From Stramenopiles sp. TOSAG23-2 (taxonomy: Eukaryota), in contig LT649292.1 in the NCBI GenBank assembly GCA_900128395.1, positions 1-44,689 of the forward strand: DNA of 44,689 bases, read 5' to 3'. This document shows, piece by piece, positions 6,247 to 40,552 of the stretch. Under the pieces are notes generated by a model. The model did no database searches and was not told the origin of the DNA. It saw only the letters and a list, made by a program, of their open reading frames with translations. Both the position numbers and the translations under genes were made by a program. Within the stretch, counting starts at the first letter, position 1. The number at the start of each line of letters is the position of its first letter.

Positions 6247-7353
6247 TTATATTATATTCGTAGTTGATATCCCATCATTTTCCTTTATATATCCATATAA
6301 TATTTGTTTAATTGTTTCATCTTTTTTCTCAGATTTATATTTTTCTTTTTTCAATTTTATTTTATATTCTTCATATAAACGGCGGAGTACCGGCATATAT
6401 TCTTTTTCTACCACACCTTGCTTTTCGGCCGTTCCTGATTTTGTTGTAACATTGCCATTATCATTATTTGATGAACTTGTAAAATATGAATATGACGATG
6501 CAACCGATGTTTTTTTACTTCTATCTGGGTTATAATATTCACTAACTGAGGTTCTTCGATCGTATTTAATTGGTGATTTTTTATTATTTGTCGTTATTGT
6601 TGCTGCTGATGCTGTCGTTGTTGTTAAATTATGATATGGAACGGAATCATCAATTATCTCGTTTGCTGGTAATTTGGATAAATCCTTTACAGCATTTTGT
6701 CTTTTTAATAACAAGTCGCTTCTCTGATGTTTTTTTTTGTTATTACTTAATATCGTTGTTTCGCCAGTTGTTTTATTCATCAATGTCACCCCATCATCAG
6801 TAATCTTATTTTTTGACAGAGTAGTTAAAATAGTTCTTGTAATTTGTGGAGTTTCAAATAATGCGGTACGTATAAGGACTGTAACAACATCTCCATTTTC
6901 CACAATAAAGGTCTTCTTATCAAATATAATTCTAGTATTTTCATACCAGCGATTTAATCCGCTGTAGTACATACATTATTCATGGATGAATGATGTGTTA
7001 GAATGGATATATTTTACAAGTTCAAGGTGAATAGAATATACTTACTATCTTAATCTTTCATAACCCCAATGATCTATAGCCGATCGAGTTAATTTTTTTA
7101 CTTGTTTTGCTTTATATGTATAAGCAATCCATGAATTTATACTTTTACGTAATGATAAATTTAACCAGAATTTCATTGCTATTCTAATTTCATCAAATTT
7201 ATTTTTACGAGTAGCACCTTGTTGTTTTCGCTTTGAATGTTGTTGACTTTGTTTCAATATATCAGTTAAGAAATTACGTTTCCCACCGGCTAATTTTGAA
7301 AAAAATAACGATGCTTTTTTATTATCACCATTACTATTTACGACACGTGGCAT
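6247..7353 (-). CDS. Two-exon hypothetical protein with Sfi1-like Trp repeats (exons 7353-7046 and 6961-6247; intron 6962-7045)
   Basis: Donor GTAAGT at 7045 and acceptor TACAG at 6962 join the two ORFs in frame (..GYERLR-Y-GLNRWY..). AMKFWLNLSLRKSINSW and AIDHWGYERLRYGLNRW resemble centrin-binding Sfi1 repeats. Confidence 0.7.
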
Positions 7354-10190: not shown

Positions 10191-10369
10191 ATATTATACA
10201 GTTCGTATGTATTACGCGTATGCCATACATACAAGGAAAAAAATAATTGTTGGAAATGATAAGAACAATATTTGTATGGTAAAAAATGTTAGAAACGGTT
10301 GGATAAAATAAATATTATACAGTTCGTATGTATATATATGTATGCCATACGTACATACAAGAAAAAAAA
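10123..10369. repeat. Tandem duplication (offset 121 bp) of the sulfurtransferase 3' end, stop codon and 3' UTR
   Basis: taattgttggaaatgataagaac...ggataaaataaatattatacagttcgtatgt starts at 10123 and at 10244. Confidence 0.92.
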
Positions 10370-10530
10370 TGGATATTTTCACATCATGTGTAACAGAAAA
10401 TTTACATTTCTCGTACTCTGATAATACCACATTATTCATTTTAAAAAATATAAAATATATTTATGTGTGTATGTAAGAGAAAATTTTTATATTTATTGTG
10501 TACGAACCTCGTATTTATATAATATATATT

Positions 10531-10923
10531 CACTCTTCTCTTCTCTCTCCTTATACGTCGTACGTATATTATTAGTTCGTACATTTATAAAAATATAAAA
10601 GACAATGATTAATGATTTTATATGGTCATATATGCATATATCATCTCTCAAACTTTATAAACATACACACTTCCAAATTGATAACACGAGAAGTGTAAAA
10701 TTATTATAACTTAGATTTTAACCATCATATATATATTTAAAAATATAAAAAAAAAGCACGAACACTCTTCTCTTCTCTCTCTCTCCTTATACGTCGTACG
10801 TATATTATAGTTCGTACTCGTACATTTAAATATGACATATAAAAGACATGATTAATGATTTTATATGTTCATATATGCATATATCATCTCTCAAACTTTA
10901 TAAACATACACACTTCCAAATTG
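10531..10923. repeat. Diverged direct duplication (~150 bp) of the RecQ 3' end and UTR
   Basis: cactcttctcttctctc...catctctcaaactttataaacatacacacttccaaattg at ~10531-10680 and ~10763-10923, with several indels. Confidence 0.88.
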
Positions 10924-13734
10924 TGGAGTAAATCCAGCACGACGAAGATTCATCCACCATGTAATTTTTCTATACCAATAAGATATTTCTTGTTGCAAAC
11001 TTTCGCTTCTCTCTTTGTAATCAACAGAAGCTTTGGCTTCACCTACGATAAATGGCAACAACAATTTCATTTGAAACTTTTCAGTTGCCACGACATTCAT
11101 GTTAGCACTATTACTAGCAATTTCAATCTTTTCCCACTCTTTTTCGGTTGGTGGAGGAATAATATTGTTGTTTGGTGCTGCTAACCTTTTCAAATTTACA
11201 GGATCACCAAGTGTAAGTGCCTTCATTACATGTGATACAACCGTGAATGGTTGAATCGTTTTACCATTTTCAGGTCGCATTGCTATTTGTTCTATGGTCT
11301 CACCACCATTTTGAAACCTTTCATAACTTGAACGATGGGAACCTTTTCCCTCTTTTGCAAATAACCATGGTTTTTTTGGTTTAAAACTTTTATTTTCTGG
11401 AAACACCATTGGAGGATCAGAAGCATCCAAGGATAAGCTATCAGTTTTGCTAAAAAATTCGTTAACAGACTTTAACATAATTGCAGCAAGCTCCTTAACT
11501 GTGCGAATTCTAACACCAATTGACTCTAATGCCTCTACCGTAGTTGGTTTGACATAAGCAATTTGTCGCATAACATGTCCCGACATGACATTATGAGGCG
11601 CCATTCCAAATTCTACCGATGTTGCTAAACGCCACTTTTCAATGCGTCCCAAGAGCTCTTCATGATTCTCTGCCTCTTTGTTCCTTCCACGATCACAGAG
11701 CGATTTTAATTTGTATATCCAGTTAGTATATGCATTCAAAATAGGGCCAGCTCCTGCTTGTAATTCTGACAATGGAATCACAGATAAATCGATACCCTTT
11801 GATATTAAATCATTCTTGGTTCTCTCAATGCGCTCTTGCTTCTTTGTTTCAATTTCAATCAATATGTCCGGTACTGGCAACATAACTTTTTCGTTGTTAA
11901 TGTTATTTAATACTCTTCTAGCTTTTACAGTGAGATTGTAGACTTCGTAAGAACGATATCCCATCGGATTCTTTTTGGTACTCCTTGATAAATATTGATT
12001 TCTAACCAAAGCAGGCAGTAATGAAGCAAAAATAGCTTTGGATTGCTCATTTCTTTCAAAGTTACGACGAAGATTTGGATTGTTCTCAAATACTTCCTTC
12101 ACTTCATCCACTATCTTCGTCTTAGCAATTGCTGTATTCCCAAAGTTTTTCATGGCAGTAAAAATAACATGAGCATGATTTATGAAATCTCTTGTCATTG
12201 ATTGGCTGCTGTTGTTATTCTTATTGCTATCTTGTTTTATGCAATTATCACAATTCCCACAAGTAGTTCCAAAAGCAGGTGTTTCATTAAAATACTTCAA
12301 TATTTGGCATCGTCGACATGTAAAACCATCTTCAACAAAGTTTCTTAAATAATCACCACTTTTATTTGACATTTCAATTGCTTTTGCAGATAAATTTTTT
12401 GTATAAAATGGTGATTTATATCGAACAAAATCGGATGAAGAATAAAACATATGGCACACGGACTCTAAACCATCTCTTCCACCTCGTCCAATATGTTGAT
12501 AGTATTCTTCCATAGTTTTTGGTGTGCCATAATGAACAATTCTTCTAATATCTGGTTTGTCAATACCCATACCAAATGCGATGGTGGCAACAATCACAGT
12601 AAATTGTGAGCTTAAAAACCCTAGGTGTGCTGTATTACGAGCTTCCGTGGTCATACCTCCGTGATACGATGCAACAGCGGTAGTGCCTAAAGCATTTCTT
12701 AGAAACGTCACAACTTTCTCTACGTCATTCTTTGTTGGGCAATAAATTATAGTACTCTCATTTTTATTCTTCCATGTATCCATTAACTGTTTAAAATCAC
12801 TCCCAATTCCACCTGTACTTTTTGATTTTATGACAAGTTTTAAATTCTCTCGATCGAACGATGATTTTGAAACAAACGTATTATTTTTCGACAATCCCAA
12901 GCAATCTAGAATGTCGCTTTGCACTTGACTCCCTGCGGTAGCTGTAAGTAAACAAAGTGGAACGCCAGGAAGTTTTTGCTTTATTATAGATAATTTGCGA
13001 TAATCGGGGCGAAAATCATGCCCCCATTCGGATACGCAGTGTGCTTCATCGATTGCAACAAATCCAATCTTGTTTCTCATTTGATCTAAAAAGGAAGATG
13101 CGGCAATTTTTTCAGGTGTTAAATACACCAAAAGGTAATCTCCATTAAGTGCTTTTCTTTCAACCAAAGGATTCATTTGTGCAGAACCTAAATAACATGC
13201 GATATCAACAGATGTGAGGCTGTTTAATTTCTTCACTTGATCAACCATTAGTGAAATTAACGGCGATATCACTAACGTAATCTTTTTACTATACAAAGAT
13301 GGTAGTTGGTAGACCATGGATTTACCTTTTCCTGTAGCCCAAAATACGGCTGTATCGATTCCGTTTAACAATGCTTTAATACAATCTAATTGTCCATCAC
13401 GAAATTGATTGTAGCCGTAATATTTGAATAACGTGCCTTGAAGCGCTGAATCATCATTATTAGAAGAAAAACTTGGAATTTCAAGTGTTTCTGTCGTTGC
13501 TTTCTCCATTTCAACCATTGCAACATCACTATTATTACTATTTATACGGCGTTTCTTATTTGCAGATTGTTTCACTTCTTCTTCAATAATCTTATTCCAA
13601 TCAATATCGTCATCATTACTGGCTCCATTTAAATCATTGTTATTGGGCGTTGTAGTAGTTCGCTTTTCTTTTATTTTCCTCGATTCTTCGAGCAATATCA
13701 GGGGAAATAGTAGTTGTTTTTTTCTTTCCGCCAT
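10891..13734 (-). CDS. RECQ: RecQ family 3'-5' DNA helicase (helicase core, Zn-binding RQC, HRDC-like and C-terminal HTH-like regions); the start is doubtful and it is probably fused to upstream Pif1
   Basis: FRDGQ, ATGKGKS, SPLISLMVDQV, DEAHCVSEWGHDFRPDY, ATIAFGMGIDKPDIR, YYQHIGRGGRDG, CRR..CGNCDNC; HRDC-like IEKWRLATSVEFGMAPHNVM. Confidence 0.93.
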   Translation of the reverse strand: MAERKKQLLFPLILLEESRKIKEKRTTTTPNNNDLNGASNDDDIDWNKIIEEEVKQSANKKRRINSNNSDVAMVEMEKATTETLEIPSFSSNNDDSALQGTLFKYYGYNQFRDGQLDCIKALLNGIDTAVFWATGKGKSMVYQLPSLYSKKITLVISPLISLMVDQVKKLNSLTSVDIACYLGSAQMNPLVERKALNGDYLLVYLTPEKIAASSFLDQMRNKIGFVAIDEAHCVSEWGHDFRPDYRKLSIIKQKLPGVPLCLLTATAGSQVQSDILDCLGLSKNNTFVSKSSFDRENLKLVIKSKSTGGIGSDFKQLMDTWKNKNESTIIYCPTKNDVEKVVTFLRNALGTTAVASYHGGMTTEARNTAHLGFLSSQFTVIVATIAFGMGIDKPDIRRIVHYGTPKTMEEYYQHIGRGGRDGLESVCHMFYSSSDFVRYKSPFYTKNLSAKAIEMSNKSGDYLRNFVEDGFTCRRCQILKYFNETPAFGTTCGNCDNCIKQDSNKNNNSSQSMTRDFINHAHVIFTAMKNFGNTAIAKTKIVDEVKEVFENNPNLRRNFERNEQSKAIFASLLPALVRNQYLSRSTKKNPMGYRSYEVYNLTVKARRVLNNINNEKVMLPVPDILIEIETKKQERIERTKNDLISKGIDLSVIPLSELQAGAGPILNAYTNWIYKLKSLCDRGRNKEAENHEELLGRIEKWRLATSVEFGMAPHNVMSGHVMRQIAYVKPTTVEALESIGVRIRTVKELAAIMLKSVNEFFSKTDSLSLDASDPPMVFPENKSFKPKKPWLFAKEGKGSHRSSYERFQNGGETIEQIAMRPENGKTIQPFTVVSHVMKALTLGDPVNLKRLAAPNNNIIPPPTEKEWEKIEIASNSANMNVVATEKFQMKLLLPFIVGEAKASVDYKERSESLQQEISYWYRKITWWMNLRRAGFTPQFGSVYVYKV

Positions 13735-15418
13735 TCATATTATCATTATCAACATCCATACTACTGCTGCCCGTATTACTGTTGTTATTATTATTATCAA
13801 ATGCATCGACATTTATATTATCCCAAAACGCAGCTGTTTCGTCATCGTCATAAATACTTCCTTCAGGTTTCTTGTAAAATTCAAGTACTGCTGGATGTGC
13901 TTTCACTGCTCTGTTAGTAATTGGGGGGCCGGTTATCCACAACCCTTCCCGGGAAACGCAACGGCTTAAAGCTACATATGTTTGGCCATATTCAAAAGCT
14001 TTTGATGCATCTATAAGGCATCGTGATAGTGTCATTCCTTGACTTTTATGAATTGTTAATGACCATGCTAACTTCAATGGAAATTGTATTCGTGTCATGC
14101 TCCCTGAATTACCCATTGCAACAAAGAAATCAAACGGAAAAATGCATACCTTGCGACCATTATCAAACTCAATGTATGGACATAGTACGCCTTTATTTTC
14201 GTCACTTTTATTATTCTCTGCATTGTAAAACAATCTAAGAACTTTTCCTCTTATTTTTGATTTATCAACATCATTGGCCCTTTTACGGACAAATTTACGA
14301 ACAACCCCACGGGAACCATTTACCAAAGTATCATCAAGGTTTCTCAACAATACAACTTGTGCACCAATCTTTAACTTGAGGTCTTTCGCAATCCTTTTTT
14401 CTGTCAAATCCTGTAATTTGTCCATTATTCGTTTTTCTATATTTGTTGTCTCAAATTCATCTGTAGCTTCAAATTTTACTAAACTTGAGTCTAAAGTATT
14501 TAATCTCCGTTCGTTTTCAGCGTCAACGTTTCTATTAAGACTCCGTAATTCTGTTGGAAGTATTCCATCCTTTGGCAAAGGTTTGTTATTTATATGACAA
14601 TTTTGAAACAGTTTTAACGCAGCATCTGTTACATTTCCCAACCTCACTTGATTCAGAATTTCAATAAGTTCCATGTCCCCTTGTTGACGAACTACTTCTG
14701 TTAATTTTTGTGTCCTCATGTTCATCTTGTTCCAAACTGAAGAACGAAAAGCAAAATCTTTCCCGTTTCCGAGTCCAACCGGTGGTAATTGTAGAAAATC
14801 ACCACACGTCACTACTTGTACACCTCCAAATGGTTCGGAATTTTCTCTTACATACTTTCCTACTTCACTTAGTTTTTCCAATAACTCACTGTCAACCATT
14901 GAAATTTCATCAATTAGAATGACCTTTGCGGATATCCAACGACCTCTAGCAGCTCGAGACAATTTTTTACTAAGAAAATGAGCACTCTCCTTCCCTAATC
15001 CAATACCAGCCCATGAATGAAGAGTTTGACCGTTAATATTTACAGCAGCAATACCAGTGGGAGCAGTGATGGCAATTTCATATACTTTGTACTTTTCCTT
15101 CAGTGTTTGAATTACATATTTGAATAAATATGATTTGCCAGTGCCAGCAACACCAGTCAAAAATATATTTTCTCCTGTAAGGATTAAATCTGCAATCTCT
15201 CGCTGTTTTGTATTTAAAGAGGAACGTGTTATGGTTGATTGCATTTCACGAATTTTTTTCTCTGTCTTCTCTGCAATCTTTTTGTGTTTTGAACTGATTC
15301 CACCGACATTATTTATTAAAACCCTTGATGCCTTTTTTTTCTTATTGTAATTTTTTGATGAGGAGGAGGAAGAGGAGGAAGCTCCCCCGTTACCATATGA
15401 ATAGTGCCAATTGCTCAT
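13640..15418 (-). CDS. PIF1: Pif1 family 5'-3' DNA helicase
   Basis: GVAGTGKS, TAPTGIAA, GQTLHSWAGIG, IDEISMVD, GDFLQLPPV, VVRQQGD, LVNGSRGVV, QFPLKLAWSLTIHKSQGMTL, FEYGQTYVALSR. Confidence 0.95.
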   Translation of the reverse strand: MSNWHYSYGNGGASSSSSSSSKNYNKKKKASRVLINNVGGISSKHKKIAEKTEKKIREMQSTITRSSLNTKQREIADLILTGENIFLTGVAGTGKSYLFKYVIQTLKEKYKVYEIAITAPTGIAAVNINGQTLHSWAGIGLGKESAHFLSKKLSRAARGRWISAKVILIDEISMVDSELLEKLSEVGKYVRENSEPFGGVQVVTCGDFLQLPPVGLGNGKDFAFRSSVWNKMNMRTQKLTEVVRQQGDMELIEILNQVRLGNVTDAALKLFQNCHINNKPLPKDGILPTELRSLNRNVDAENERRLNTLDSSLVKFEATDEFETTNIEKRIMDKLQDLTEKRIAKDLKLKIGAQVVLLRNLDDTLVNGSRGVVRKFVRKRANDVDKSKIRGKVLRLFYNAENNKSDENKGVLCPYIEFDNGRKVCIFPFDFFVAMGNSGSMTRIQFPLKLAWSLTIHKSQGMTLSRCLIDASKAFEYGQTYVALSRCVSREGLWITGPPITNRAVKAHPAVLEFYKKPEGSIYDDDETAAFWDNINVDAFDNNNNNSNTGSSSMDVDNDNMNGGKKKTTTISPDIARRIEENKRKANYYNAQ

Positions 15419-16463
15419 TCCTAAAGATAGTTATTACTGTAATAGTGTATCTTTATTGTGAAATGCAATTTACAATTATTATAACAATTAAACGTAGCAC
15501 GTATATTTGTTTGTTTTGTTAGTTTTACAATTTTCAAAAATCAAAAGTTTCAAAGAAAAAAAGAAGATTTGGTTATTATTATTGTATATATATATAGTAG
15601 TAGTAGTATAGCATTTATTAAAATGATGATGTACCAGGTAATACAGGTAAAGTGCTAAAAAAAAATACTATTATTACCGCCTTTTTTTTTTCAATAATTC
15701 GTGCATTCTAATAATTTCAATAATATAAATGAAATAAAAATATAATAATAAATAATAATAAATTTTTTTTCAATAATTTTAGGCGTAGAGTAAGAGTACA
15801 CGCGAAGTTTCGTTTGCAAAGACCCTTAAAGTTTGCGAAGTCTGTGTGGTATTGTGGTTATGGTAATGCCATGATAAAAAACCTTATTTGATAGATAGAT
15901 GTAGCCCAATTTGAGAAAGGGGTGCTTGCCTTACCTAGTACATAACCGGTGAAAGATGGAAAAAGGTCATCGAATAAAAACAGAATATAGTACCGTTTGT
16001 AGTATTGATTGCTATACCATTACTATAGCAGCAATGATGACATAGGCACACGCACACGTACACGATGATAAATAATAATAATATTATAGAAGGAATAATA
16101 CTACTACTACCATCAGGAATACAAACAACATATTATAGTCTTCTTTTATAAATATATATATTTAATATACTATTATATATATTATGTTATGCAACCCTTC
16201 TGTTACATATTATGATAACTAAATTACTTATTATGGGATAATAATTAATCGTATAAGCAACTTAACTCTTAAAATAAATTTGCAAAAAGTATACGTACGT
16301 AAAATAGAAAAGTAGTGCTCTACCATCGTCTTTTAAAAGTAGCAGTACAAGTGTACAAAGTTTAATATAAAAAACAATTCGCTTAAACAACGTTTAGTCT
16401 ATAATTTAGTCAAGTTGCCTTTAATATTTGATAACTCAAGCATCTTACTCGTATATTTATAAG

Positions 16464-28150: not shown

Positions 28151-29071
28151 ATGAAGATTACTTGTTCTATCGTTGCCACGCTCCTGATTGCAGCAACAGT
28201 AGCAAACGGCGCACCGATCACTACGTTAGATACTGCATATATAGGATTACAGAAAGATATTAAATTACCAAACGGTCTCGAAGTAAGAGGACTTTTAAGT
28301 GTAGACGGCCCAAGTACTATTACGAAGGGTGGAGAAGCAAAAGTTGTTAAAGCCATTGCAATGGAAACAAAGAAAATCAAAGCACAAAGAACGACTTCTC
28401 TAGATACGCAAGCAAGACGTATTCGCTCACCAAATGGTAAATTGGATGTAAAAGGTACCATTCAAGTTGCTGGTGCAATACGTTACGCAGAACCAAAAAC
28501 AACAGATTTCCCTGCTTCCCCTTTTGCATTTATTGAGGAAGCAGAAAATGCTGGACCAAGTAATAAATATTGGAAACGCGTAGTGAAGGAAGATTTTAGT
28601 GGTGAGAATGGATTAGATGGATGGAAAGCATTGTTGTTACGTGGTAGTGATATTGGATCCTCCACAGAAGAAGCAACTGTTGGAAAATCAAAATGTGTAG
28701 GCAACCACTTTCTAGGTGGACACTGTAAAGCAAGTTCACACTCGTTGTTTAAAACATTTAATAATTTACCACCACACACAGAAGTCAGAGTCAAAGCTAG
28801 ATTCCATTTCATCGATCAATGGAATGGTGAAAATGCATATTTGAAAGTAGATGGTGGTTATGCATGGTTAGCTTCGCACAAAACAACTGCGAATAAAGGT
28901 GTTGACATGTGTGGTAATAGTGATGTTAAAGAAAGCAAATTTGGTGTACCAATTGATATTATGGAAACCCATTCAAATGCAAAATTGGAATTAAAATTTG
29001 GTTCAGAATTAAAAGCTGATCCATGTTTAGGTTCATTTGGTGTGGATGATATTGAAATCTTTGTACGTTAA
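28151..29071 (+). CDS. Secreted protein of unknown function with a Cys-containing C-terminal beta domain
   Basis: Clear signal peptide; FLGGHC..LPPHTEVRVKARFHFIDQWNGE..CG..SFGVDDIEIFVR resembles an uncharacterised domain I recall from protist surface proteins. Confidence 0.75.
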   Translation: MKITCSIVATLLIAATVANGAPITTLDTAYIGLQKDIKLPNGLEVRGLLSVDGPSTITKGGEAKVVKAIAMETKKIKAQRTTSLDTQARRIRSPNGKLDVKGTIQVAGAIRYAEPKTTDFPASPFAFIEEAENAGPSNKYWKRVVKEDFSGENGLDGWKALLLRGSDIGSSTEEATVGKSKCVGNHFLGGHCKASSHSLFKTFNNLPPHTEVRVKARFHFIDQWNGENAYLKVDGGYAWLASHKTTANKGVDMCGNSDVKESKFGVPIDIMETHSNAKLELKFGSELKADPCLGSFGVDDIEIFVR

Positions 29072-29270: not shown

Positions 29271-31170
29271 TCAGTAATAGCTAATTCCACTATTCGTGCT
29301 ATTGCCACTTGAACTGTTACTTGAATTACTTCTAATGCTGCTAGAACTGCTAATAGTAGAACGGCTTTCATCGTCTTTATACAACATGGGCTGTTCATTA
29401 TCATGTTGTTGTTGTTCTTGCTGCTGCTGTTGCCCTTTCTTCTTCTCAACACGATTTGCATCTGTATTACCATACATTATCCAATTTTTTATTATGTCAT
29501 TGTTTGATTTTCTACTTTCAAAAATATAATCAAGCGTTTTCACAGTTCGTTTATTAGGATATACGCAGGTGAAATTTGTTGTGGATGCCCTATCAAATTC
29601 CTCTTTAGTTTCCAATAAAATGTCTCTTCGTGGTTGATTTGTTTGTGATTTTGCTCCTGTTGGCACTCCAACAATATGCAATGCATCGGTCAACATTCCA
29701 TATTTTAATCGTTTATCAAATGGAGAGGCACTCATCATGGATGGATAAATATTTACCTCGATTAAATACACTTTCAAATTTTCATCAAACATTAAATCGA
29801 ATCCAAACAATTCAAAACAACATTCATCGCGCCCACGCATCCCAACGCATTTTGGATAACATTCACTCTCAGCTGCAATTAACGTTTTCGCAGCAACATC
29901 TTGCATATCACGTAATAATTTCTTTGTATCCCTACCCTCCACCTTCAATTTATTTAAAAATGAGCTAAACGATTGTTTCGAACCGGTATCATCTTCATCT
30001 GCACTTCTATTTTCAACAAAATCATCACTATTTTTATTGATAGAATAATTTGTTAAATGTTTGTACGAATCTTTCAATTCATTTGCATTTAAATTGTACT
30101 CATGCGTACATAAACGAACCATGCCTTCATTATACATATATACTCTTAATGGATTAAAGCTTGTAACCATTACATAAAATCTACAATCAAATTTACGATT
30201 GTCAATTAAACATGGGTTGCCGATGTAACGTTGTACCTGAATTTTGTATATATATTTATACATTCATGAAAAATGTTAGATTTTTTTCCTAACAAATATA
30301 AAGTTGTTTTTATACAAACTGTCGAATATATATATATATACAGATAGTACGAATATAAATCTAAATCCTACTTACATTCCAAACCTTATTCTTTGTTTCG
30401 CCAGTGCTTTTTAATTTACGTTTCAATGGTAAATTTTTCACATCTTTTGTTCTCATGACTTTGATGCCACGGCCACAACTTCCGCCTTGTGGTTTACAGA
30501 TCCATACATCATCTAAATCTACCTCGCCTTTTTTCAATTTCTTCTTCTTTCCTCCACGACTTTTCATATTTTTTTGACGTTCCACATCTGCATAAAAACG
30601 CTCAATATCCATAGGATTTCCACGTATAATATGTGTTTCAGGAAGAAAGCTAAATGCATCATCACGCAAGCGACGTTGAAAACGACGAAATAAAGTTGCA
30701 CAACGATCTTTGGCTCCAATACAGCCAGTTCCAGGGAATGAATTGACTCGCTTATGCATCGGTAAATGTCTATATGCATCATTCGGTAAATGTTTTCCCC
30801 ATAATACATCCCATGAATTATCTTCTTTATCAAGACAACGTGCAAAACCAGCTTCTCGAAAAACAGCTTTGACAGAATTTCGCATCCAATACGTTTTATA
30901 TTTTAAATCAAGCAAACGGCGAGGTCCATGTGATTGTTCAGTTGATCGCTTGGCTACTTTAGCAGCATCAGGATAATCGAAAAAAATTGTTTCATTACCA
31001 GTACGATATCTTGATGATAATAAAATAGGCTCTTTTCGTTTTGGTGATAGAGGCCAGTTTTTACGCCCAGAACTTTTAGATGATGCAGAAGAAGTGTTTG
31101 AACTGGTAGAGGATGGCCGTTTTTTTTTCAAAGATTTTTTTTTTTTTTTTGGTTTTGTTGTTAATTTCAT
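29271..31170 (-). CDS. TTLL: Tubulin-tyrosine-ligase-like polyglutamylase (TTLL4/5-like); exons 31170-30376 and 30236-29271, intron 30237-30375
   Basis: RVNSFPG, FLPETH, WICKPQGGSCGRGI; donor GTAAGT and acceptor TTCAG give VWN-VQRYI; RKFDCRFYVMVTSFNPL, EGMVRLCT, HLTNYSINK, FELFGFDLMFD, LIEVNIYPS. Confidence 0.93.
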
Positions 31171-31765: not shown

Positions 31766-33976
31766 ATGGAAAATAGTAAACATTCAGAACATAGTACTAT
31801 ATATACATCTAGTTATTTAAAAAAACGACAATCCATATCATATAAGTTAAATCAATTGTGCAACAAAAATATGAATAGGTTGTTACATTTAAAAGGAACT
31901 AAACGATACGTAAGAAGACCATGTACTAACTCTTCTTCGTTTATGAAAAATAATAACAATATAGTAAATAAAAAAAGAATGCCAAATTATATTTTTGATA
32001 AAAAATATTATAATAAAAAATTATTAAATAATATCATCAACAAACGTAAACAATATCATCTACCATCTTTATCTATTGTTAATGCTTTTAACTGGCATCA
32101 AAAGCGATTATTTTCGAAGGCTACAGTAAAACAAAATAAATCTAGTAGGGCATCAACGACTATATTCATATCGTCTTACATAAATAATGCGAATAATACA
32201 ATGTTTGAACAACGACGTACATTTGCAAAACAAAAAAAAGCAAGTAAAAGTAATCCAGGTGGTGGTATACCTGGTGAATTTGTCATGTCAGTACAGCAAC
32301 TGCAAAAAATTGTTGGCACTCGTACTTTATTTGACAATGTGACATTGGGTTTTTTACAAGGTGCAAAAATTGGTATTTTAGGTTTAAATGGTTGTGGAAA
32401 ATCATCATTAATGAAAATTTTAGCTGGTGTAGAGGAAGAATTTGATGGTGATTTTTGGAAAAAAGATGATTTAAAAGTTGGTTATCTAGCACAAGAACCG
32501 GAATTAAATGCTAAATTAAATGTACGTGAAAATGTCATGGAAGCGTTGAGAAAAGAACAAGATTTATTAAAACGCTTTGAAGAAATCTCATTGGAAATGG
32601 GTGAACCGGATGCTGATTTCGATAAATTAATTGAAGAACAAGGTGTAATTACGGAGGAAATTGATAAATACGATGCGTGGACCATTGATGATAAAGTTAA
32701 TCAAGCAATGCAAGCATTGCGTGTGCCAGAAGATGATTTAAGTGTCGAACATTTATCTGGCGGAGAACGTAGAAGAATTGCATTGTGTCGATTATTATTG
32801 GAAAAACCTGATATGTTGCTTTTAGATGAACCGACAAATCATTTAGATGCTGAATCTGTTGAATGGTTGGAACAATTTTTGAAACGATATGAAGGGACTG
32901 TTATTGCAATTACACACGATCGTTATTTTTTAGATAATGTTGCAGGTTGGATTTTAGAAATCGAACGTGGGAGAGCATTACCATTTGAGGGCAATTATTC
33001 TAATTGGTTGATTGCAAAGGAGAAACGAATGAGCTTGGAAAATAAAAAAGATGCATCTCGTAAAAAAGCTATTCAAAAAGAATTGGAATGGATACGTAAA
33101 AGTGCAAAAGGTCAACAAAAAAAAGGTAAAGCGCGTTTAAAATCCTTTGAAAAACAAAAAGATGAAGTTGCAAAATCGGATCAAGCAAATTTAATTGAAA
33201 GTGGATCAATCGTGATTCCAAACGGACCAAGACTTGGGAATAAAGTTGTTGAAGTTTCAAATTTAACACATACATTTGATGATGGGGAAAAACAAATTTT
33301 TGACAATGTATCATTTAAAGTCCCTAAAGGTGCTACAGTGGGTATAATTGGTGGCAATGGAATGGGTAAATCAACATTATTTTCCATGATATGTGGTGAT
33401 TCCGATGGTGGGTTAAAGCCATCGGATGGTGGCATTATTGATCTTGGAGAAAGTGTTCAAATTGGCTACGTTTCACAATCGCGTGATAGTTTAAATGAAC
33501 AAAATAGTGTGTACGAAGAAATATCTGGTGGTAATGATTATATAAATATTAATGGTACCGAAGTGCAAATACGCGCATACGTCTCTGCATTTAATTTGAA
33601 AGGTCCTGCACAGGAAAAACGTGTTGGTGATTTAAGTGGTGGTGAACGTAATCGTGTACATTTAGCAAAAACATTAAGCCAAGGTGCTAATTTGATTTTA
33701 TTAGATGAACCTACGAATGATTTAGATGTTGAAACATTACGTTCATTGGAGGAAGCATTGGGAAATTTTCAAGGTACTTCTATGATAATTTCCCACGATC
33801 GTTATTTTTTAGATCGTTTATGCACTCATATTTTAGCATTTGAAGGTGATGGTCGAGTTGATTTTTTTGAAGGTACATGGACAGAATATTTAAAAGAAGC
33901 AAAAACTAGTATACATCATAAAGATGATAGTGATGAAGGGAAAAAGAAACGATATCGTCCATTGAATTATTTTTAA
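31766..33976 (+). CDS. ettA: ABC-F translation factor of the EttA/ChvD type with a long basic N-terminal extension (start may be ATG 31871)
   Basis: GAKIGILGLNGCGKS, KVGYLAQEPELN, LSGGERRRIALCRLLLEKPDMLLLDEPTNHLDAESVEWLE, THDRYFLDNVAGWILE, KELEWIR..KGKARL, IPNGPRLG, LSGGERNRVHLAK. Confidence 0.93.
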   Translation: MENSKHSEHSTIYTSSYLKKRQSISYKLNQLCNKNMNRLLHLKGTKRYVRRPCTNSSSFMKNNNNIVNKKRMPNYIFDKKYYNKKLLNNIINKRKQYHLPSLSIVNAFNWHQKRLFSKATVKQNKSSRASTTIFISSYINNANNTMFEQRRTFAKQKKASKSNPGGGIPGEFVMSVQQLQKIVGTRTLFDNVTLGFLQGAKIGILGLNGCGKSSLMKILAGVEEEFDGDFWKKDDLKVGYLAQEPELNAKLNVRENVMEALRKEQDLLKRFEEISLEMGEPDADFDKLIEEQGVITEEIDKYDAWTIDDKVNQAMQALRVPEDDLSVEHLSGGERRRIALCRLLLEKPDMLLLDEPTNHLDAESVEWLEQFLKRYEGTVIAITHDRYFLDNVAGWILEIERGRALPFEGNYSNWLIAKEKRMSLENKKDASRKKAIQKELEWIRKSAKGQQKKGKARLKSFEKQKDEVAKSDQANLIESGSIVIPNGPRLGNKVVEVSNLTHTFDDGEKQIFDNVSFKVPKGATVGIIGGNGMGKSTLFSMICGDSDGGLKPSDGGIIDLGESVQIGYVSQSRDSLNEQNSVYEEISGGNDYININGTEVQIRAYVSAFNLKGPAQEKRVGDLSGGERNRVHLAKTLSQGANLILLDEPTNDLDVETLRSLEEALGNFQGTSMIISHDRYFLDRLCTHILAFEGDGRVDFFEGTWTEYLKEAKTSIHHKDDSDEGKKKRYRPLNYF

Positions 33977-36815: not shown

Positions 36816-38609
36816 CTACCAACTACTACTACTACCCCTCCATATATTATTATCATTCCTCTTTGGATCATCATTATGCGAACCGTACAATGGAAATGCC
36901 TTCCCATTAACAACCATGAAATTGTTATTAGGACCATTGTAATTATTATTATTATTATCACTATTAGAATTAGTGGGTCTCCTCCAACTATGAGTGCTAC
37001 TATTAGCATGATTGTACTGATTATTTTTGCTATTATTACCGCGATTATTATCGTCCCATTTATTATACTTCGCTTGTTTCCACTCTCTTTGACTACTATT
37101 AGCATGATTGTAATAATTATTATTATTGCTATTACTGCGATTATCATCTTCCCATTTATTATTATCATACTTAGTTTGCTTAAATACTTTTTGATCATGG
37201 TGCCTTACATCATTATTATTATTGTTGTCAAATTGTTTTCGTTTCTTAACATTTCTGGGACTACTGCTGCTACTGCTATTACCATTACTATTGTACCCAA
37301 CGCTATTAAGAGGGACGCTTCTAGAATAATTCAATGATGATGATGATGAAGATATATTAGCTGATGGGGTTGATGAAGAAGATACTACACCACCATCATC
37401 ACAACTAGCTTCTATTCCCTTTAATAATTGAACCGTCCTAATCACATTGTCCCTATTCCTATCCCTTTTTCTTTCAATACTTTCAAATATATGCTTTCTT
37501 AATTTTTTTGAAATAGAGGCACCTACAGTAACAACTCGTTTTTTATTGATACTGTTATTCAAATCAGTTGTGCTTGATGCTGTTTTCCATGTGCCCTCTG
37601 GGGTTAATAATGCATTGCTGGCAATGGTTTGTTTACTCGGAATAATAGAACTTGCATAAAAAATTACATTTGATGAAGATGAACTAAAATTAAATTCACA
37701 AATATCCTTTAAATGAAAGGTACCTTCGCCATCACATTCAGATGATACTAATATACTATATGTAGAAGCATCTTTCTCAATATGGTACTTCGTTTGCATA
37801 TCTACGTATGTTGTTGCACTATAATAATAATTTAAGCCACAATGTTCAAGTTTTGATATAGTAGTACTATATTGTTTGCAAAGTTCTTTTTCTACTAATG
37901 GTGAATTTTTTAAAATACCAGCTTTAGAAAAAACTGCTTTGCTTTTATCGTTCAAATATTCACCAACAATTTTCATGCCTGTGTTAATTGCATCAACAGT
38001 ACCTTGTTGATATTTTGTAATTTCTTCTTTACTTAATGTTTCTTTACCTTCTTTCAAAGGAAATGGACCGTATGAACAGTCATTACTATCAATTTCATCT
38101 TTTGCTGTTATACCGCAAGTAAAACTTAATCCCGACTCAATAAAATCGCTGTCGTCGTCGTTGTCGTTATTGTTGCTGTTATTAGTATTATTGTTATTAT
38201 TATTATTATTATTATATATTTCTGCTATTTGTAAAACGTCTTTTTCTTTTATTGAATAATTTATCATTTCACCACCTTCCGTCTTAAAAAGACCATCCAT
38301 CTTAATACGATTAGCATCATTTTTATCATTTACAAAGATAAAAGCTAAAAGTTCGTTTTGACTTTTGCTAATAAACATTGTTGTTTTTGTAACTTTAATT
38401 GGGACATTATTTGTATTATGATATACTTTTCTCACAGGATCATAATCTAATCTAATCTTTAAAACACCTTTTCCTTTTATTTTCTTTTGTTGATTACCAT
38501 TCAACCAAATTAGGTTTAAATCTGAATTGAAATACTGCTTTGCAAACTGCCATCTTCTACTATTTGCATTTAGCCTTCGTCGTTTTTTGGAAGGTTTACT
38601 TTTATCCAT
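36816..38609 (-). CDS. Hypothetical protein with a possible TET/JBP-like 2OG-Fe(II) dioxygenase fold and an Asn-rich repetitive C-terminus
   Basis: 597-aa open frame; TKYHIEKDASTYSILV..GTFHL..VIFYASSIIPSKQ has double-stranded beta-helix-like spacing (domain call tentative); repeated KYxxxKWxDxNRxNxxNNxYNHANSS. Confidence 0.6.
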   Translation of the reverse strand: MDKSKPSKKRRRLNANSRRWQFAKQYFNSDLNLIWLNGNQQKKIKGKGVLKIRLDYDPVRKVYHNTNNVPIKVTKTTMFISKSQNELLAFIFVNDKNDANRIKMDGLFKTEGGEMINYSIKEKDVLQIAEIYNNNNNNNNNTNNSNNNDNDDDSDFIESGLSFTCGITAKDEIDSNDCSYGPFPLKEGKETLSKEEITKYQQGTVDAINTGMKIVGEYLNDKSKAVFSKAGILKNSPLVEKELCKQYSTTISKLEHCGLNYYYSATTYVDMQTKYHIEKDASTYSILVSSECDGEGTFHLKDICEFNFSSSSSNVIFYASSIIPSKQTIASNALLTPEGTWKTASSTTDLNNSINKKRVVTVGASISKKLRKHIFESIERKRDRNRDNVIRTVQLLKGIEASCDDGGVVSSSSTPSANISSSSSSLNYSRSVPLNSVGYNSNGNSSSSSSPRNVKKRKQFDNNNNNDVRHHDQKVFKQTKYDNNKWEDDNRSNSNNNNYYNHANSSQREWKQAKYNKWDDNNRGNNSKNNQYNHANSSTHSWRRPTNSNSDNNNNNYNGPNNNFMVVNGKAFPLYGSHNDDPKRNDNNIWRGSSSSW

Positions 38610-39053: not shown

Positions 39054-40357
39054 TTATACCAAACTTCTCAACTCTTCCCTTGCTAAAAAATAAATGCCAA
39101 TTGTAATCACAGAAGCAAATGCACTAAATACTTTTTGTGCTAACGAAGATGTTAAATGTACATTGAAGACTTTTAAACCTTTGCATTCATGGCTATCAAT
39201 CCAATGATTGAATCTAACGGATGTCCAGCCTAATTTGACTTGTGCATGATGTATCTTCGCATCTGATAATAATTGCATTTTTGTTTCTTCCCACACACGA
39301 TTTGGTTTAGTAACTGCCTTAATATAAACATACAAAAAACCAATTGTCATTATAAAAAGAAAAGAAAACAAACCTATAACACTTGAACGATAACTGCCTC
39401 CTATCGGCGTAACAAGAAAAAATGCTTCTATAAGCACCCATACAGGAAGATTAACCATATTAGTAGTGTAAAATGAATTTAAGCCGTTAGACATTGATCT
39501 TGAAAAGCTATCGATTTTTTCCTGTTCGTTAGATAACTCCTGTATAATCCATTCGATTTTATTATTTTTTCCTTCTTCCAAGCCAATCTCATGATTTTCC
39601 ATTACTAAAATCTCACGTACTTTTTTTAAATATGCTTTCACTTTTTTTTCCCAAATGGGTGTCAGTGATGGACTGTAGTATATAAAAATAATAATGGAAA
39701 TGTTAGTATTTTTTATTGTATTTTTTACTATACCACAGTATTATTGTATAATAATTGCAGCGCACCAGCTGCAATTATATAATGAATATTTTTTCAGATT
39801 TCAACTTACATTATAATCGCTGGTGCGTTACCAAGTGGGCCGATTAGTAAAAAGCAAACATACGAAATGGATAGAGCAGTGATTGAAATTGTAAATGTGT
39901 GTGGTCCTAAATAAGTCCCAGATGCAAATGGAAGAGCAAAAAAAATAATCATTAATGGGAATACAATTAATCCGACAATGACCGTTCCAAAGATAAGTCC
40001 TTGCTGCATTTCTTGATTGAGTTTCGTTGTCAAATTTTTATCTGCCAAAAGTATATTTAAGAAGAAGCCTTTTGAAAAATCTGGTGGTGTAGCAACATCA
40101 AATGTATTGCTAGTAGAACTTAATACCCCGATTGTAACCCCGGCAGAGAGTACGCCAGTTATCCCGACAAACATCATGATAAACATAGGTGTTGTCAAAA
40201 GAGCTAACAGTATTAACATGCGTCTCCATTTTGCTGCAAATTTGATGCTAAATCTTAAGTATGCTGGCAATTCATCAATGCTATTTAATTTTACATTGGC
40301 CAGTACTTCCACTTCCTCATTGCTGTCGGTCTGCTGTACTTTGTAATTGGATGCCAT
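39054..40357 (-). CDS. Multi-pass membrane protein, gustatory-receptor-like/7TM ion channel candidate; exons 40357-39810 and 39672-39054, intron 39673-39809
   Basis: Donor GTAAGT and acceptor TACAG join the ORFs in frame (APAII-I-PSLTPIWEKKVK); several hydrophobic helices; C-terminal GLKVFNVHLTSSLAQKVFSAFASVITIGIYFL. Confidence 0.7.
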
Positions 40358-40552
40358 GACAAGATCGGGGAACGAAAATGACAATATATATATATATATA
40401 TATATATGAATATACAAACAGAGTACTGGTTCTTTTGTTCTTTTGGTGATATGTATCTCTTTCTTTGATGACAAGCAACACCAAGAAGAACTGTTTAAAT
40501 GTACTAGGTTTGCGGGTGCCGGGCCACAGTGGGTGTTTGGGGTTTGGGCAAG

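What the first reader, a model, noticed from the sequence alone, without database searches (positions are those of the whole stretch)
10891..15418. Candidate Pif1-RecQ fusion: a bipolar (5'-3' plus 3'-5') helicase split by a +1 frameshift
Seen: Pif1 and RecQ ORFs are on the same strand and overlap by 95 nt in different frames, leaving no room for a terminator or promoter. Both sides of the junction are Asn/Asp-rich linker. The minus strand reads GAG GAA AAT AAA AGA AAA GCG A ACT ACT ACA; skipping one base near 13660 gives one ~1508-aa protein. No frame-restoring GT-AG intron is visible at the junction. Known: Pif1 (SF1B) moves 5'-3', RecQ (SF2) moves 3'-5', and both resolve G-quadruplexes and stalled forks; WRN carries an exonuclease in this N-terminal position. 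Inference: a single dual-polarity G4/fork/telomere helicase that I do not know as a described architecture. The break is either an assembly indel or a real frameshift yielding Pif1 alone and the fusion.
Basis: partly seen in the sequence, partly recalled or inferred. Interest (0 to 1): 0.85.

Follow-up and report, generated by a model that had tools for sequence, protein, structure and literature searches.

The report
Pif1–RecQ fusion gene, assembly gap
A marine protist encodes one long protein joining two DNA-unwinding motors that travel in opposite directions, and the apparent break between them in this window is a missing 182-base stretch, not a real frameshift.

Summary
The two minus-strand ORFs exist as described: Pif1 at 13640-15418 and RecQ at 10891-13734, overlapping by 95 nt in different frames. 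The break is not a 1-base frameshift. The window lacks exactly 182 nt between 13660 and 13659. A metagenome contig (L001, 15 substitutions in the ORF) and a DNA contig of run X7 both carry those 182 nt. With them the gene is one 1569-codon ORF.

Five distinct full-length alleles were found, and all 8 junction-reaching cluster members carry the insert form. The run closest to the window (X1) and a poly-A RNA run (X15) also run into the insert. No source shows the window's junction.

Both motors keep their catalytic motifs and fold confidently. The linker, mostly lost in the window, carries two helical motifs resembling the RPA32C-binding peptide of SMARCAL1 (marginal, E 0.12).

No other Pif1+RecQ protein appeared in three large protein searches, and no paper naming one was found. 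The next RecQ relative (63% identity) is stand-alone.

Verdict: the fusion is real and undescribed, and confined to a narrow lineage. The frameshift is most likely an assembly or amplification artefact, less likely a rare deletion allele. Bipolar action is inferred, not shown.

The parts
13660..15418 (-). Codons 1-586 of the fusion gene plus the first base of codon 587: disordered N-terminus, Pif1 helicase, Asn/Asp-rich spacer and the first half of linker motif 1
   Evidence: ORF, translation. Colinear with L001 codons 1-586, with 7 substitutions and no indel.
13859..15241 (-). Pif1 (SF1B) helicase core, residues about 60-520, including the 2B SH3-like domain
   Evidence: Pfam PIF1 68-265 (141 bits) and Pif1_2B 345-376. 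Walker A at 92, DEISM at 170, motif III at 206, motif V at 455, motif VI at 481. AF2 pLDDT >90 over the core. Yeast Pif1 5o6b matches at E 2.8e-89.
13661..13708 (-). Truncated first RPA32C-like linker motif (residues 571-586). Its C-terminal half lies in the missing 182 nt.
   Evidence: Motif scan. Helix 573-603 in the AF2 model of the L001 sequence.
13659..13660 (-). Breakpoint: 182 nt present in relatives are absent here. They encode residues 587-647: the rest of motif 1, all of motif 2, and most of a Thr run. They also contain an A9 run.
   Evidence: X7 DNA contig has '182 letters between' 13659 and 13660 (table 5). MAFFT of window vs L001 shows a single 182-nt gap at the same place.
10891..13659 (-). 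Codons 648-1569 of the fusion gene plus the stop codon: end of linker and the whole RecQ half
   Evidence: ORF, translation. Colinear with L001, with 8 substitutions and no indel.
12226..13440 (-). RecQ (SF2) helicase lobes and zinc-binding domain, residues 721-1125
   Evidence: Pfam DEAD 736-894, Helicase_C 938-1044, RecQ_Zn_bind 1075-1120. TGKGKS at 756, DEAH at 851, motif VI at 1035, Cys cluster at 1095. WRN core matches at E 2.6e-82.
11869..12195 (-). Predicted winged-helix (RQC) domain, residues about 1136-1244. Pfam does not call it.
   Evidence: AF2 model: helices plus a beta-hairpin at 489-597 of the RecQ half. Foldseek aligns 542 columns to the 511-residue RecQ catalytic core 4tmu_A, TM 0.82 on the target.
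11470..11661 (-). HRDC domain, residues 1314-1377
   Evidence: Pfam HRDC 33.2 bits, cut-off 23.8. Helical bundle with pLDDT >90.
10894..11469 (-). Conserved C-terminal region after HRDC, residues 1378-1569, function unknown. Stand-alone relatives of this RecQ subfamily share it.
   Evidence: Relatives align over 91-99% of the 920-residue query. Nearly invariant W/R/G columns reach residue 907 of the half. The region is mostly confidently folded. Only a weak HTH_40 hit, below cut-off.

Best explanation
The locus is one gene of a compact, AT-rich marine eukaryote. In its intact form it is an uninterrupted 1569-codon ORF. The order of parts is: a disordered N-terminus, a complete Pif1 (SF1B) helicase, a linker of about 200 residues, and a complete RecQ (SF2) helicase with Zn, winged-helix and HRDC domains and a subfamily-specific tail. 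The linker is mostly disordered but carries two tandem helical motifs that resemble the RPA32C-binding peptide of SMARCAL1. The window's copy lacks 182 nt inside the linker. That shifts the frame and makes the gene look like two overlapping ORFs. The gap is most likely an error of assembly or of genome amplification (about 65%), less likely a rare real deletion allele (about 30%). Inferred, not shown: the protein is brought to RPA-coated single-stranded DNA by the linker motifs. There it applies a 5'-3' motor and a 3'-5' motor to the two strands of a fork, DNA end, D-loop or G-quadruplex-bearing duplex, as the RecB and RecD motors of RecBCD do as separate subunits.
For: **The gap.** An X7 DNA contig of 2878 nt lies on 12923-13659 and 13660-15546 with 182 letters between. 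L001 aligns with a single 182-nt gap in the window at 13660|13659 and no other indel inside the ORF, and it translates to 1569 residues with one terminal stop.

**Closest run.** In X1, the run sharing most words (0.93) and listing the fewest differences, one contig runs 83 letters past 13659. Another carries 40 loose letters before 13660. The 30 printed letters equal, by eye, the reverse complement of the first 30 nt of the L001 insert.

**RNA.** A poly-A contig of X15 has 20 loose letters at 13662 that match the insert start at 18 of 20 positions by eye and stay in frame.

**Protein records.** Four 1569-residue proteins on separate contigs (P0003, P0133, P0135, P0136) and L001 differ pairwise by 4-12 residues. 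Of the 15 listed members of the 21-member cluster, 8 reach the junction. All 8 have the insert form and 0 have the window form.

**Intact motors.** Pfam domains are all above cut-off and the catalytic motifs are present. PDB matches are yeast Pif1 at 2.8e-89 and WRN at 2.6e-82. AF2 gives pLDDT 83.3 and 87.5 for the two halves, and Foldseek matches whole RecQ cores.

**Selection.** L001 vs L002 over 924 RecQ-half codons gives dN/dS of 0.20.

**Linker.** Helices 573-603 and 606-626 have block pLDDT of 80-93. Motif 2 aligns to 4mqv_B, named in the output as the SMARCAL1 protein, over 23 residues at E 0.12. RPA2-WH-binding motifs in SMARCAL1, TIPIN, UNG2 and XPA are described in PMC4702912 and PMC8053108 (passages read).
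Against: **Contigs, not reads.** All four runs were laid as contigs, which drop rare variants. 466 pieces were not shown, so a minority deletion allele cannot be excluded.

**RNA bridging.** No listed RNA contig is shown bridging the whole insert. X15 record 12 runs 282 letters past 13660 but their content was not printed. X17 does not bridge. RNA libraries can also hold DNA.

**Origin of the gap.** The breakpoints share no repeat that would explain a de Bruijn collapse, so the mechanism of an artefact is unknown.

**A broken relative.** One cluster member (P0123, 618 aa) ends as expected for A10 instead of A9 in the linker, so frame-breaking variants or errors in this linker do occur.

**Weak motif match.** The SMARCAL1 match is marginal, and two designed proteins scored better on the same stretch.

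**Untested biochemistry.** Polarity, coupling of the motors and RPA binding rest on family knowledge only.

**Library caveat.** The query's own cluster did not appear in the exhaustive search, so that library can hide fused forms behind another representative.
Confidence: 0.85

Rival explanations
1. The 182-nt deletion is real in the window's source organism or strain. It would be a rare loss-of-function allele that ends Pif1 after 592 residues and leaves the RecQ half without its own start.
For: The window has a clean junction without N. The breakpoints have no repeat that would explain an assembler collapse. Contigs cannot show absence of a minority allele. Another member, P0123, also carries a frame break in the linker.
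Against: 0 of 8 junction-reaching cluster members have this form, and neither does L001 or X7. X1, the run most like the window, has contigs passing both breakpoints into the insert without a branch. The rest of the ORF differs from L001 by only 15 substitutions and no indel, so there is no sign of decay. A second irregularity lies 3 kb away in the same assembly.
Confidence: 0.3
2. Pif1 and RecQ are two separate genes. RecQ would be transcribed or translated on its own from within the Pif1 3' end, and the long ORFs elsewhere would be chimeric assemblies.
For: The nearest other RecQ (P0137, 63% identity) is called as a 922-residue stand-alone protein on 12 contigs. All other listed relatives of either half are unfused.
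Against: Five distinct full-length alleles come from separate contigs, and a DNA contig of an organism-labelled run is continuous across the junction. There is no stop codon anywhere in the 1569 codons. The linker stays in frame in the variants. Chimeras would not recur with the same junction in independent assemblies.
Confidence: 0.03
3. Programmed recoding. A frameshift or transcriptional slippage in the linker would yield Pif1 alone as the main product and the fusion as a minor one.
For: The linker of intact copies holds an A9 run. P0123's ending fits A10, which would give a 618-residue Pif1-only product.
Against: Intact copies need no shift to make the fusion. The window's break is a 182-nt gap, not a slippery site. 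A single contig with A10 is as well explained by a sequencing error or a mutation. No RNA variant at the A run was seen, but it lies inside the stretch that the laid reference lacks.
Confidence: 0.03
4. The break hides a spliceosomal intron. Splicing of a GT..AG interval at the junction would restore the frame in the window's own form.
For: 32 formal GT..AG intervals of 20-260 nt restore an open frame. The genome has short introns: the TTL gene is split by about 97 nt.
Against: An RNA contig of X17 is colinear over 13665-13850 with 0 differences and passes over most candidate donors and four candidate acceptor positions. No RNA joint is listed there. The candidate acceptors are purine-rich. 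Each candidate would delete residues that are coding in the intact relatives. The missing 182 nt do not start with GT or end with AG.
Confidence: 0.01

Closest known systems
PIF1-family helicases (S. cerevisiae Pif1, PDB 5o6b; human PIF1, 6hph)
   Same: The N-terminal half has the PIF1 Pfam domain, the 2B domain and all the motor motifs checked. It matches yeast Pif1 at E 2.8e-89.
   Different: No described PIF1 carries a second helicase. The nearest listed relatives are at most 55% identical and at most 1165 residues long.
WRN and other RecQ helicases (PDB 6yhr, 9hzg; E. coli-type RecQ cores 1oyw, 4tmu; BLM 4cgz)
   Same: The C-terminal half has RecQ motor lobes, a Zn domain, a predicted winged helix and HRDC. 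WRN is the best solved match at E 2.6e-82. Like WRN, it carries a second enzymatic module N-terminal to the RecQ core.
   Different: WRN's N-terminal module is a 3'-5' exonuclease; here it is a whole SF1B helicase. By sequence the half belongs to a subfamily of stand-alone proteins of about 900-1050 residues, found in haptophytes, diatoms and prasinophytes at 34-42% identity.
RecBCD (and AddAB/AdnAB) bipolar helicase-nucleases
   Same: They combine a 3'-5' motor with an SF1B 5'-3' motor (RecD, in the same superfamily branch as Pif1) in one machine. The abstract of PMC13101046 and the listing for PMC6338465 were seen.
   Different: There the motors are separate subunits, the 3'-5' motor is SF1A rather than SF2, and a nuclease is part of the machine. 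No nuclease domain was found here. Whether the two motors here act on one DNA molecule at once is untested.
Known PIF1 fusions: Pif1-Orc3 of Dictyostelium (Cavenderia) fasciculatum, and PIF1 with U-box, CUE-like, RNase H1-like, CCHC or WYL modules
   Same: They set the precedent that the PIF1 motor is fused to functional partners (bioRxiv 10.1101/163188, passages read). P0064 of Cavenderia carries PF07034 and appeared.
   Different: None of these partners is a helicase. 'RecQ' occurs 0 times in that paper.
HRDC-Pif1 and HRDC-RQC-Pif1 proteins of diatoms and unnamed marine eukaryotes (P0012, P0013, P0025, P0070, P0071, P0073)
   Same: Pif1 is joined to accessory domains otherwise typical of RecQ. 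This hints at a wider association between the Pif1 motor and RecQ-type DNA-binding modules.
   Different: The accessory domains lie N-terminal to Pif1 and there is no RecQ motor. Their Pif1 is 33-41% identical to this one.
RPA32C (RPA2-WH) binding motif of SMARCAL1, TIPIN, UNG2 and XPA (ELM class LIG_RPA_C; PDB 4mqv)
   Same: Two tandem linker motifs are predicted helical. Motif 2 aligns with the 4mqv_B chain over 23 residues.
   Different: The match is only marginal (E 0.12). The motif is in tandem and sits between two motors instead of at a terminus. Binding is untested.

Membership tests
PIF1 (SF1B) helicase family | PIF1 helicase domain above the curated Pfam score | tested here: met
   PF05970 scores 141.1 bits against a cut-off of 25.9, residues 68-265. 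In the window's own ORF it scores 140.1 bits.
PIF1 (SF1B) helicase family | Intact motor motifs (Walker A, Walker B, III, V, VI) | tested here: met
   GTGKS at 92, DEISM at 170, GDFLQLPPV at 206, TIHKSQG at 455, YVALSR at 481. The same positions are invariant or nearly so among 50 relatives. The motif names are recalled.
PIF1 (SF1B) helicase family | 2B (SH3-like) domain inserted in domain 2A | tested here: met
   PF21530 scores 39.1 bits against a cut-off of 23.9. The AF2 model has a beta-rich segment at 411-470.
PIF1 (SF1B) helicase family | Pif1 signature motif between motifs II and III | tested here: inconclusive
   The PFGG.Q end of the motif is present and conserved in A2, but the central 'IAR' of the alignment consensus reads differently here. 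The definition of the signature is recalled.
PIF1 (SF1B) helicase family | ATP-dependent 5'-3' unwinding | not testable with these tools
   Needs purified protein.
RecQ (SF2) helicase family | DEAD/Helicase_C motor with RecQ motif 0 and DEAH box | tested here: met
   PF00270 scores 101.9 bits and PF00271 scores 73 bits. TGKGKS at 756, DEAH at 851 and QHIGRGGRDG at 1035 are present. The motif 0 residues F86, R87, G89 and Q90 of the RecQ half are invariant or nearly invariant among 54 relatives. My first regular expression for motif 0 missed it.
RecQ (SF2) helicase family | Zinc-binding domain with four cysteines | tested here: met
   PF16124 scores 34.7 bits against a cut-off of 25. C448, C467, C470 and C473 of the RecQ half are invariant.
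RecQ (SF2) helicase family | Winged-helix part of the RQC region | tested here: met
   Pfam RQC (PF09382) is not detected. The AF2 model aligns over 542 columns to the 511-residue RecQ core 4tmu_A (TM 0.82 on the target, rmsd 4.5). That this core includes the winged helix is recalled. The feature is met only at the level of a predicted fold.
RecQ (SF2) helicase family | HRDC domain | tested here: met
   PF00570 scores 33.2 bits against a cut-off of 23.8, residues 1314-1377.
RecQ (SF2) helicase family | ATP-dependent 3'-5' unwinding | not testable with these tools
   Needs purified protein.
RecBCD-type bipolar helicase machines (considered as an analogue, not filed under) | Two motors of opposite polarity held together | tested here: met
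   An SF1B module and an SF2 RecQ module lie in one ORF. The polarities are inferred from family membership.
RecBCD-type bipolar helicase machines (considered as an analogue, not filed under) | Associated nuclease and homology to RecB/RecC | tested here: not met
   No nuclease or RecB/RecC family appears among the Pfam matches at E <= 0.001.
RPA32C-binding linear motif (ELM LIG_RPA_C) | Sequence likeness to a structurally proven instance | tested here: inconclusive
   Match to 4mqv_B at E 0.12, 16.4 bits, 23 residues. Two designed proteins and RecA constructs scored similarly.
RPA32C-binding linear motif (ELM LIG_RPA_C) | Helix within a disordered region | tested here: met
   Helices 573-603 and 606-626 are flanked by segments with pLDDT <50 at 541-570 and 629-647.
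RPA32C-binding linear motif (ELM LIG_RPA_C) | Binding to the RPA32 C-terminal winged helix | not testable with these tools
   The organism's RPA32 is not at hand because no genome is held.

The most novel reading that the evidence does not exclude
The 1569-residue protein is a natural single-chain bipolar helicase. Its tandem RPA32C-type motifs dock it on RPA-coated DNA, and the Pif1 (5'-3') and RecQ (3'-5') motors then work on the two strands of the same fork, end, D-loop or G-quadruplex site. This would be a eukaryotic, nuclease-free counterpart of RecBCD. By the Rosetta-stone logic, it would also be evidence that PIF1 and RecQ helicases act as a physical team in other eukaryotes.
Probability: 0.3. 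Interest if true: 0.75.

Novelty: new variant of a known kind. Interest (0 to 1): 0.58.

Why it matters
PIF1-family and RecQ-family helicases meet at the same problems: G-quadruplexes, stalled forks, D-loops and telomeres. In yeast they interact strongly in genetic tests. rrm3 sgs1 double mutants are lethal or sick, and an Sgs1-Pif1 interaction appears when Top3 is absent (PMC7073672, passages and reference list read). How the two polarities are coordinated is not understood.

A natural fusion of both complete motors, with a probable RPA-docking linker between them, offers a ready-made test object. One polypeptide can be expressed, each motor can be switched off in turn, and one can ask whether opposite-polarity motors cooperate on one substrate. 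A fusion in one lineage also predicts a functional, perhaps physical, partnership of the separate proteins elsewhere.

For genome annotation, the case shows that a "frameshifted" pair of ORFs in an environmental eukaryote assembly can hide a longer missing stretch. Such a gap is only visible by comparison with other assemblies.

Tried and rejected
- Own-genome search: no genome is held for this window.

**Searches that added nothing**
- ESM Atlas with P0003: only RecQ clusters, at scores of 0.85 or below. None had PIF1 and no structure search was possible, so it is uninformative.
- Rfam on 10200-10900: one sub-threshold mir-297 match (22 bits against a gathering score of 90, E 0.26), taken as chance.
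- tRNA scan of the window: none found.

**Hypotheses rejected**
- Intron: 32 formal GT..AG intervals exist, but the colinear RNA contig and the 182-nt evidence rule them out.
- Programmed frameshift: rejected because intact copies are in one frame.

**Tests too weak to use**
- dN/dS of window vs L001: only 7 and 8 differences in the two halves, too few to be informative.
- RNA cover: parts of the gene without RNA contigs in X15 and X17 are not evidence of anything. X17 does not bridge the junction. The 282 run-on letters of X15 record 12 could not be read.
- Contig-length matching, to see whether a Pif1 relative shares a contig with the stand-alone RecQ P0137: no match, uninformative.

**Left open**
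- L002, the 82% relative: its ORF is still open at the contig's first base inside the linker. Whether a Pif1 lies upstream in that lineage could not be decided.
- Taxonomic placement gave only hints. The neighbouring EttA-type ABC-F protein is closest to oomycetes among named eukaryotes (55-58%). The Pif1 half is closest to a choanoflagellate protein among named records (52%).
- Supplementary files of papers were not consulted. Supplementary figures of PMC8053108 that align RPA2-WH motifs might sharpen the motif comparison.
Full report
**Observation.** The window's minus strand holds two long ORFs, 13640..15418 (592 aa) and 10891..13734 (947 aa). They overlap by 95 nt in different frames (translations; junction sequence). 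Pfam finds PIF1 and the Pif1 2B domain in the first. It finds DEAD, Helicase_C, RecQ_Zn_bind and HRDC in the second, all above the curated cut-offs. The neighbouring genes are eukaryotic: NPL4, Es2, a cyclic-nucleotide-gated channel, a sulfatase, a mannose-6-phosphate receptor, TTL, PTEN-like. The window has 32% G+C and is gene-dense. It has at least one probable short intron, in the TTL gene, which is split by about 97 nt. The one exception is that formal frame-restoring GT..AG intervals do exist: 32 were found, though none is supported.

**What the break really is.** A search with the Pif1 ORF among longer proteins returned P0003. It has 1569 residues, is 99% identical, and carries both the PIF1 and the RecQ domain sets. 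Compared with the window, it has 61 extra residues exactly at the junction.

I then laid contigs of two DNA runs and two poly-A RNA runs, from four studies, on 10600-15700.
- **X7 (DNA):** a 2878-nt contig lies on 12923-13659 and 13660-15546 with 182 letters between.
- **X1 (DNA):** this run shares most words with the window and lists the fewest differences. One contig runs 83 letters beyond 13659. Another has 40 loose letters before 13660. The 30 printed letters are, by eye, the reverse complement of the first 30 nt of the insert seen later in L001.
- **X15 (RNA):** one contig has 20 loose letters at 13662 that match the insert start at 18 of 20 positions by eye and remain in frame.
- **Window form:** no listed contig bridges the junction in the window's form. 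However, 466 pieces were not shown, and contigs drop rare variants.

A metagenome contig, L001, aligns to the window's minus strand with a single 182-nt gap in the window between 13660 and 13659. There is no other indel within the ORF, and L001 translates to 1569 residues with only a terminal stop. The missing stretch does not begin with GT or end with AG, and its ends share no repeat.

**How well the intact form is supported.** Four 1569-residue proteins on separate contigs, plus L001, differ pairwise by 4-12 residues, so they are distinct alleles and not copies of one record. Of the 15 listed members of the 21-member cluster, 8 reach the junction. All 8 have the insert form and none has the window form.

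Within the ORF, the window and L001 differ by only 15 substitutions, 7 in the Pif1 part and 8 in the RecQ part. The window's copy therefore shows no other sign of decay.

A second irregularity lies 3 kb away. The stretch 10531-10680 duplicates 10763-10923, including the last 11 codons of the ORF. The two copies flank a 44-mer whose depth is about 730 times that of the gene in both DNA runs. The 3' flanks of L001 and L003 leave the window at about 10724-10731.

I read the 182-nt gap as most likely an assembly or amplification artefact (about 65%). A rare real deletion allele is less likely (about 30%). Raw reads of the source sample would decide.

**Anatomy of the protein (P0003/L001 numbering).**
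- Residues 1-41 are disordered.
- Residues 60-520 are a complete Pif1 core with the 2B domain. Walker A is at 92, Walker B at 170, and motifs III, V and VI are present. pLDDT is above 90, and the best solved relative is yeast Pif1 at E 2.8e-89.
- Residues 520-720 form the linker. It has an Asn/Asp-rich disordered part, then two helices (573-603 and 606-626, block pLDDT 80-93), then a Thr run and more disorder.
- The RecQ half has motif 0, TGKGKS at 756, DEAH at 851 and motif VI at 1035. Four invariant cysteines form the Zn domain. A winged helix is recognised only in the predicted structure: Foldseek aligns 542 columns to the RecQ core 4tmu_A with TM 0.82 on the target, and about 700 columns to BLM. 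HRDC lies at 1314-1377, followed by a conserved tail of about 190 residues shared with stand-alone relatives. WRN is the best solved match, at E 2.6e-82.
- L001 vs L002 (83% identical in protein) gives dN/dS of 0.20 over 924 RecQ-half codons, which indicates purifying selection.

**The linker motifs.** The two helices carry a repeated motif of the form S-P-x(4)-R-I-E-x-N-K-x-K-A. Searched against PDB sequences, motif 2 aligns over 23 residues with chain B of 4mqv, which the output names as the SMARCAL1 protein. Its role as the peptide crystallised with RPA32C comes from the title of a reference seen. The match is marginal (E 0.12, 16.4 bits), and two designed proteins scored slightly better on the same stretch. 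The motif class is described for SMARCAL1, TIPIN, UNG2 and XPA (PMC4702912 and PMC8053108, passages read).

A pattern for the motif occurs twice in the fusion. It occurs in 0 of 119 RecQ relatives, in 1 of 119 long Pif1 relatives (a rust-fungus protein, at its N-terminus) and in 0 of 148 Pif1 representatives. It is therefore a feature of this fusion's linker and was not inherited from typical parents. The window's gap removes half of motif 1 and all of motif 2.

**Distribution.**
- With the Pif1 half as query among proteins of 1037-2960 residues, 1 of the 120 listed (1741 had E <= 0.001) also carries RecQ-type domains: P0003.
- With the RecQ half among proteins of 862-2746 residues, 1 of the 120 listed (of 5506) carries PIF1, again P0003.
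- In the exhaustive HMMER search with the window's Pif1 ORF, none of the 150 listed (of 37,734) is longer than 1165 residues, and all are at most 55% identical. A caveat applies: the query's own cluster was not listed, so that library can hide fused forms behind another representative.
- The next RecQ relative, P0137 (63-64% identical), starts with its own methionine at the equivalent of the linker's end. It is called as a 922-residue protein on 12 contigs.
- The 82% relative L002 is cut by its contig end inside the linker, with the ORF still open.
- Other relatives of the RecQ half are stand-alone proteins of about 900-1050 residues, from haptophytes, diatoms, prasinophytes and unnamed marine eukaryotes.
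- Several diatom-type proteins join HRDC or HRDC+RQC domains to the N-terminus of Pif1. That is a different architecture.

The organism is an uncultured marine eukaryote found in 20 runs of 14 studies. A neighbouring EttA-type ABC-F protein is closest to oomycetes among named eukaryotes, which is only a hint of a stramenopile.

**Literature.** The terms 'Pif1-RecQ', 'RecQ-Pif1' and 'Pif1 RecQ fusion' have 0 occurrences in the library. A broader search gave 109 papers, and none of the 20 listed titles concerns a natural fusion. A paper that reviews PIF1 fusion partners names Orc3, U-box, CUE-like, RNase H1-like, CCHC and WYL modules, and does not contain the word RecQ (bioRxiv 10.1101/163188, passages read). 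The protein sequence itself is already in public databases, without a name.

**Mechanism.** What is shown:
- one ORF;
- two complete motor modules with intact catalytic motifs;
- a partly helical linker;
- presence of the locus in poly-A RNA libraries.

What is inferred from established family knowledge: Pif1 translocates 5'-3' and RecQ 3'-5'. Tethered together, they could track the two strands of one duplex in the same overall direction, as the RecB and RecD subunits of RecBCD do (abstract of PMC13101046 seen). Alternatively, they could attack a structure from both sides. The linker motifs would bring the enzyme to RPA-coated DNA.

Yeast genetics links the two families: rrm3 sgs1 lethality, and Sgs1-Pif1 interplay without Top3 (PMC7073672, passages and reference list). 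None of this was tested here. I give the bipolar, RPA-recruited model about 30%.

**Verdict.** To my searches it is an undescribed domain architecture, confined to a narrow lineage. The "+1 frameshift" is wrong in kind: it is a 182-nt gap in this assembly, and the native protein has 1569 residues. I rate it a new variant of a known kind, with interest 0.58.

Noticed in passing
window 10531-10923: The stretch 10531-10680 duplicates 10763-10923 (a 76-nt core at 99%, plus 31-nt and 19-nt exact pieces), and the copy includes the last 11 codons of the RecQ ORF. Between the copies, the 44-mer at 10682-10725 has a depth of about 16,300 (X1) and 7,100 (X7), against about 22.5 and 9.7 for the gene. That is about 730-fold in both runs. 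It occurs once in the window. The L001 and L003 flanks leave the window at about 10724-10731. This is a dispersed high-copy repeat, a second assembly irregularity, or both.
   Followed up: partly
L001 2050-2307 (linker; inside the 182 nt missing from the window): The intact linker contains an A9 run. The cluster member P0123 (618 aa) ends exactly as an A10 reading would predict, which gives a Pif1-only product. This could be a sequencing error, a polymorphism or slippage; it is undecided.
   Followed up: partly
window 29271-31170 (-): A tubulin-tyrosine-ligase gene is split into two ORFs about 97 nt apart (Pfam profile positions 7-89 and 102-287). This is probably a short intron, so the genome is intron-poor but not intron-free.
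   Followed up: no
window 31766-33976 (+): An ABC-F protein of the bacterial EttA type carries an N-terminal extension of about 160 residues. Its nearest named eukaryotic relatives are oomycetes (55-58%), followed by many bacteria at 53-56%. It may be an organelle-targeted or transferred gene, and it gives a weak taxonomic hint.
   Followed up: partly
proteins P0012, P0013, P0025, P0070, P0071, P0073 (other organisms): Pif1 helicases of diatoms and unnamed marine eukaryotes carry one to three HRDC domains, or HRDC plus RQC, N-terminal to the motor. These are RecQ-type accessory domains without a RecQ motor.
   Followed up: partly
protein P0131 (cluster member, 662 aa): Its linker differs from P0003 over about 15 residues after the Thr run, and its last three residues (DLN) coincide with a DLN in P0003's linker. 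This might be a locally shifted frame restored by a second indel, or a contig-end artefact. No DNA was available to check.
   Followed up: no
Search of protein representatives result: The query's own 99%-identical relative, or its cluster representative, did not appear among the hits. The fused protein is probably filed under a RecQ-only representative. Domain fusions can therefore be invisible in that library.
   Followed up: no
window 36816-38609, 39054-39641, 39806-40474, 41691-43310, 6247-6972, 28151-29071: Six ORFs of 195-597 residues have no Pfam match at E <= 1e-5.
   Followed up: no
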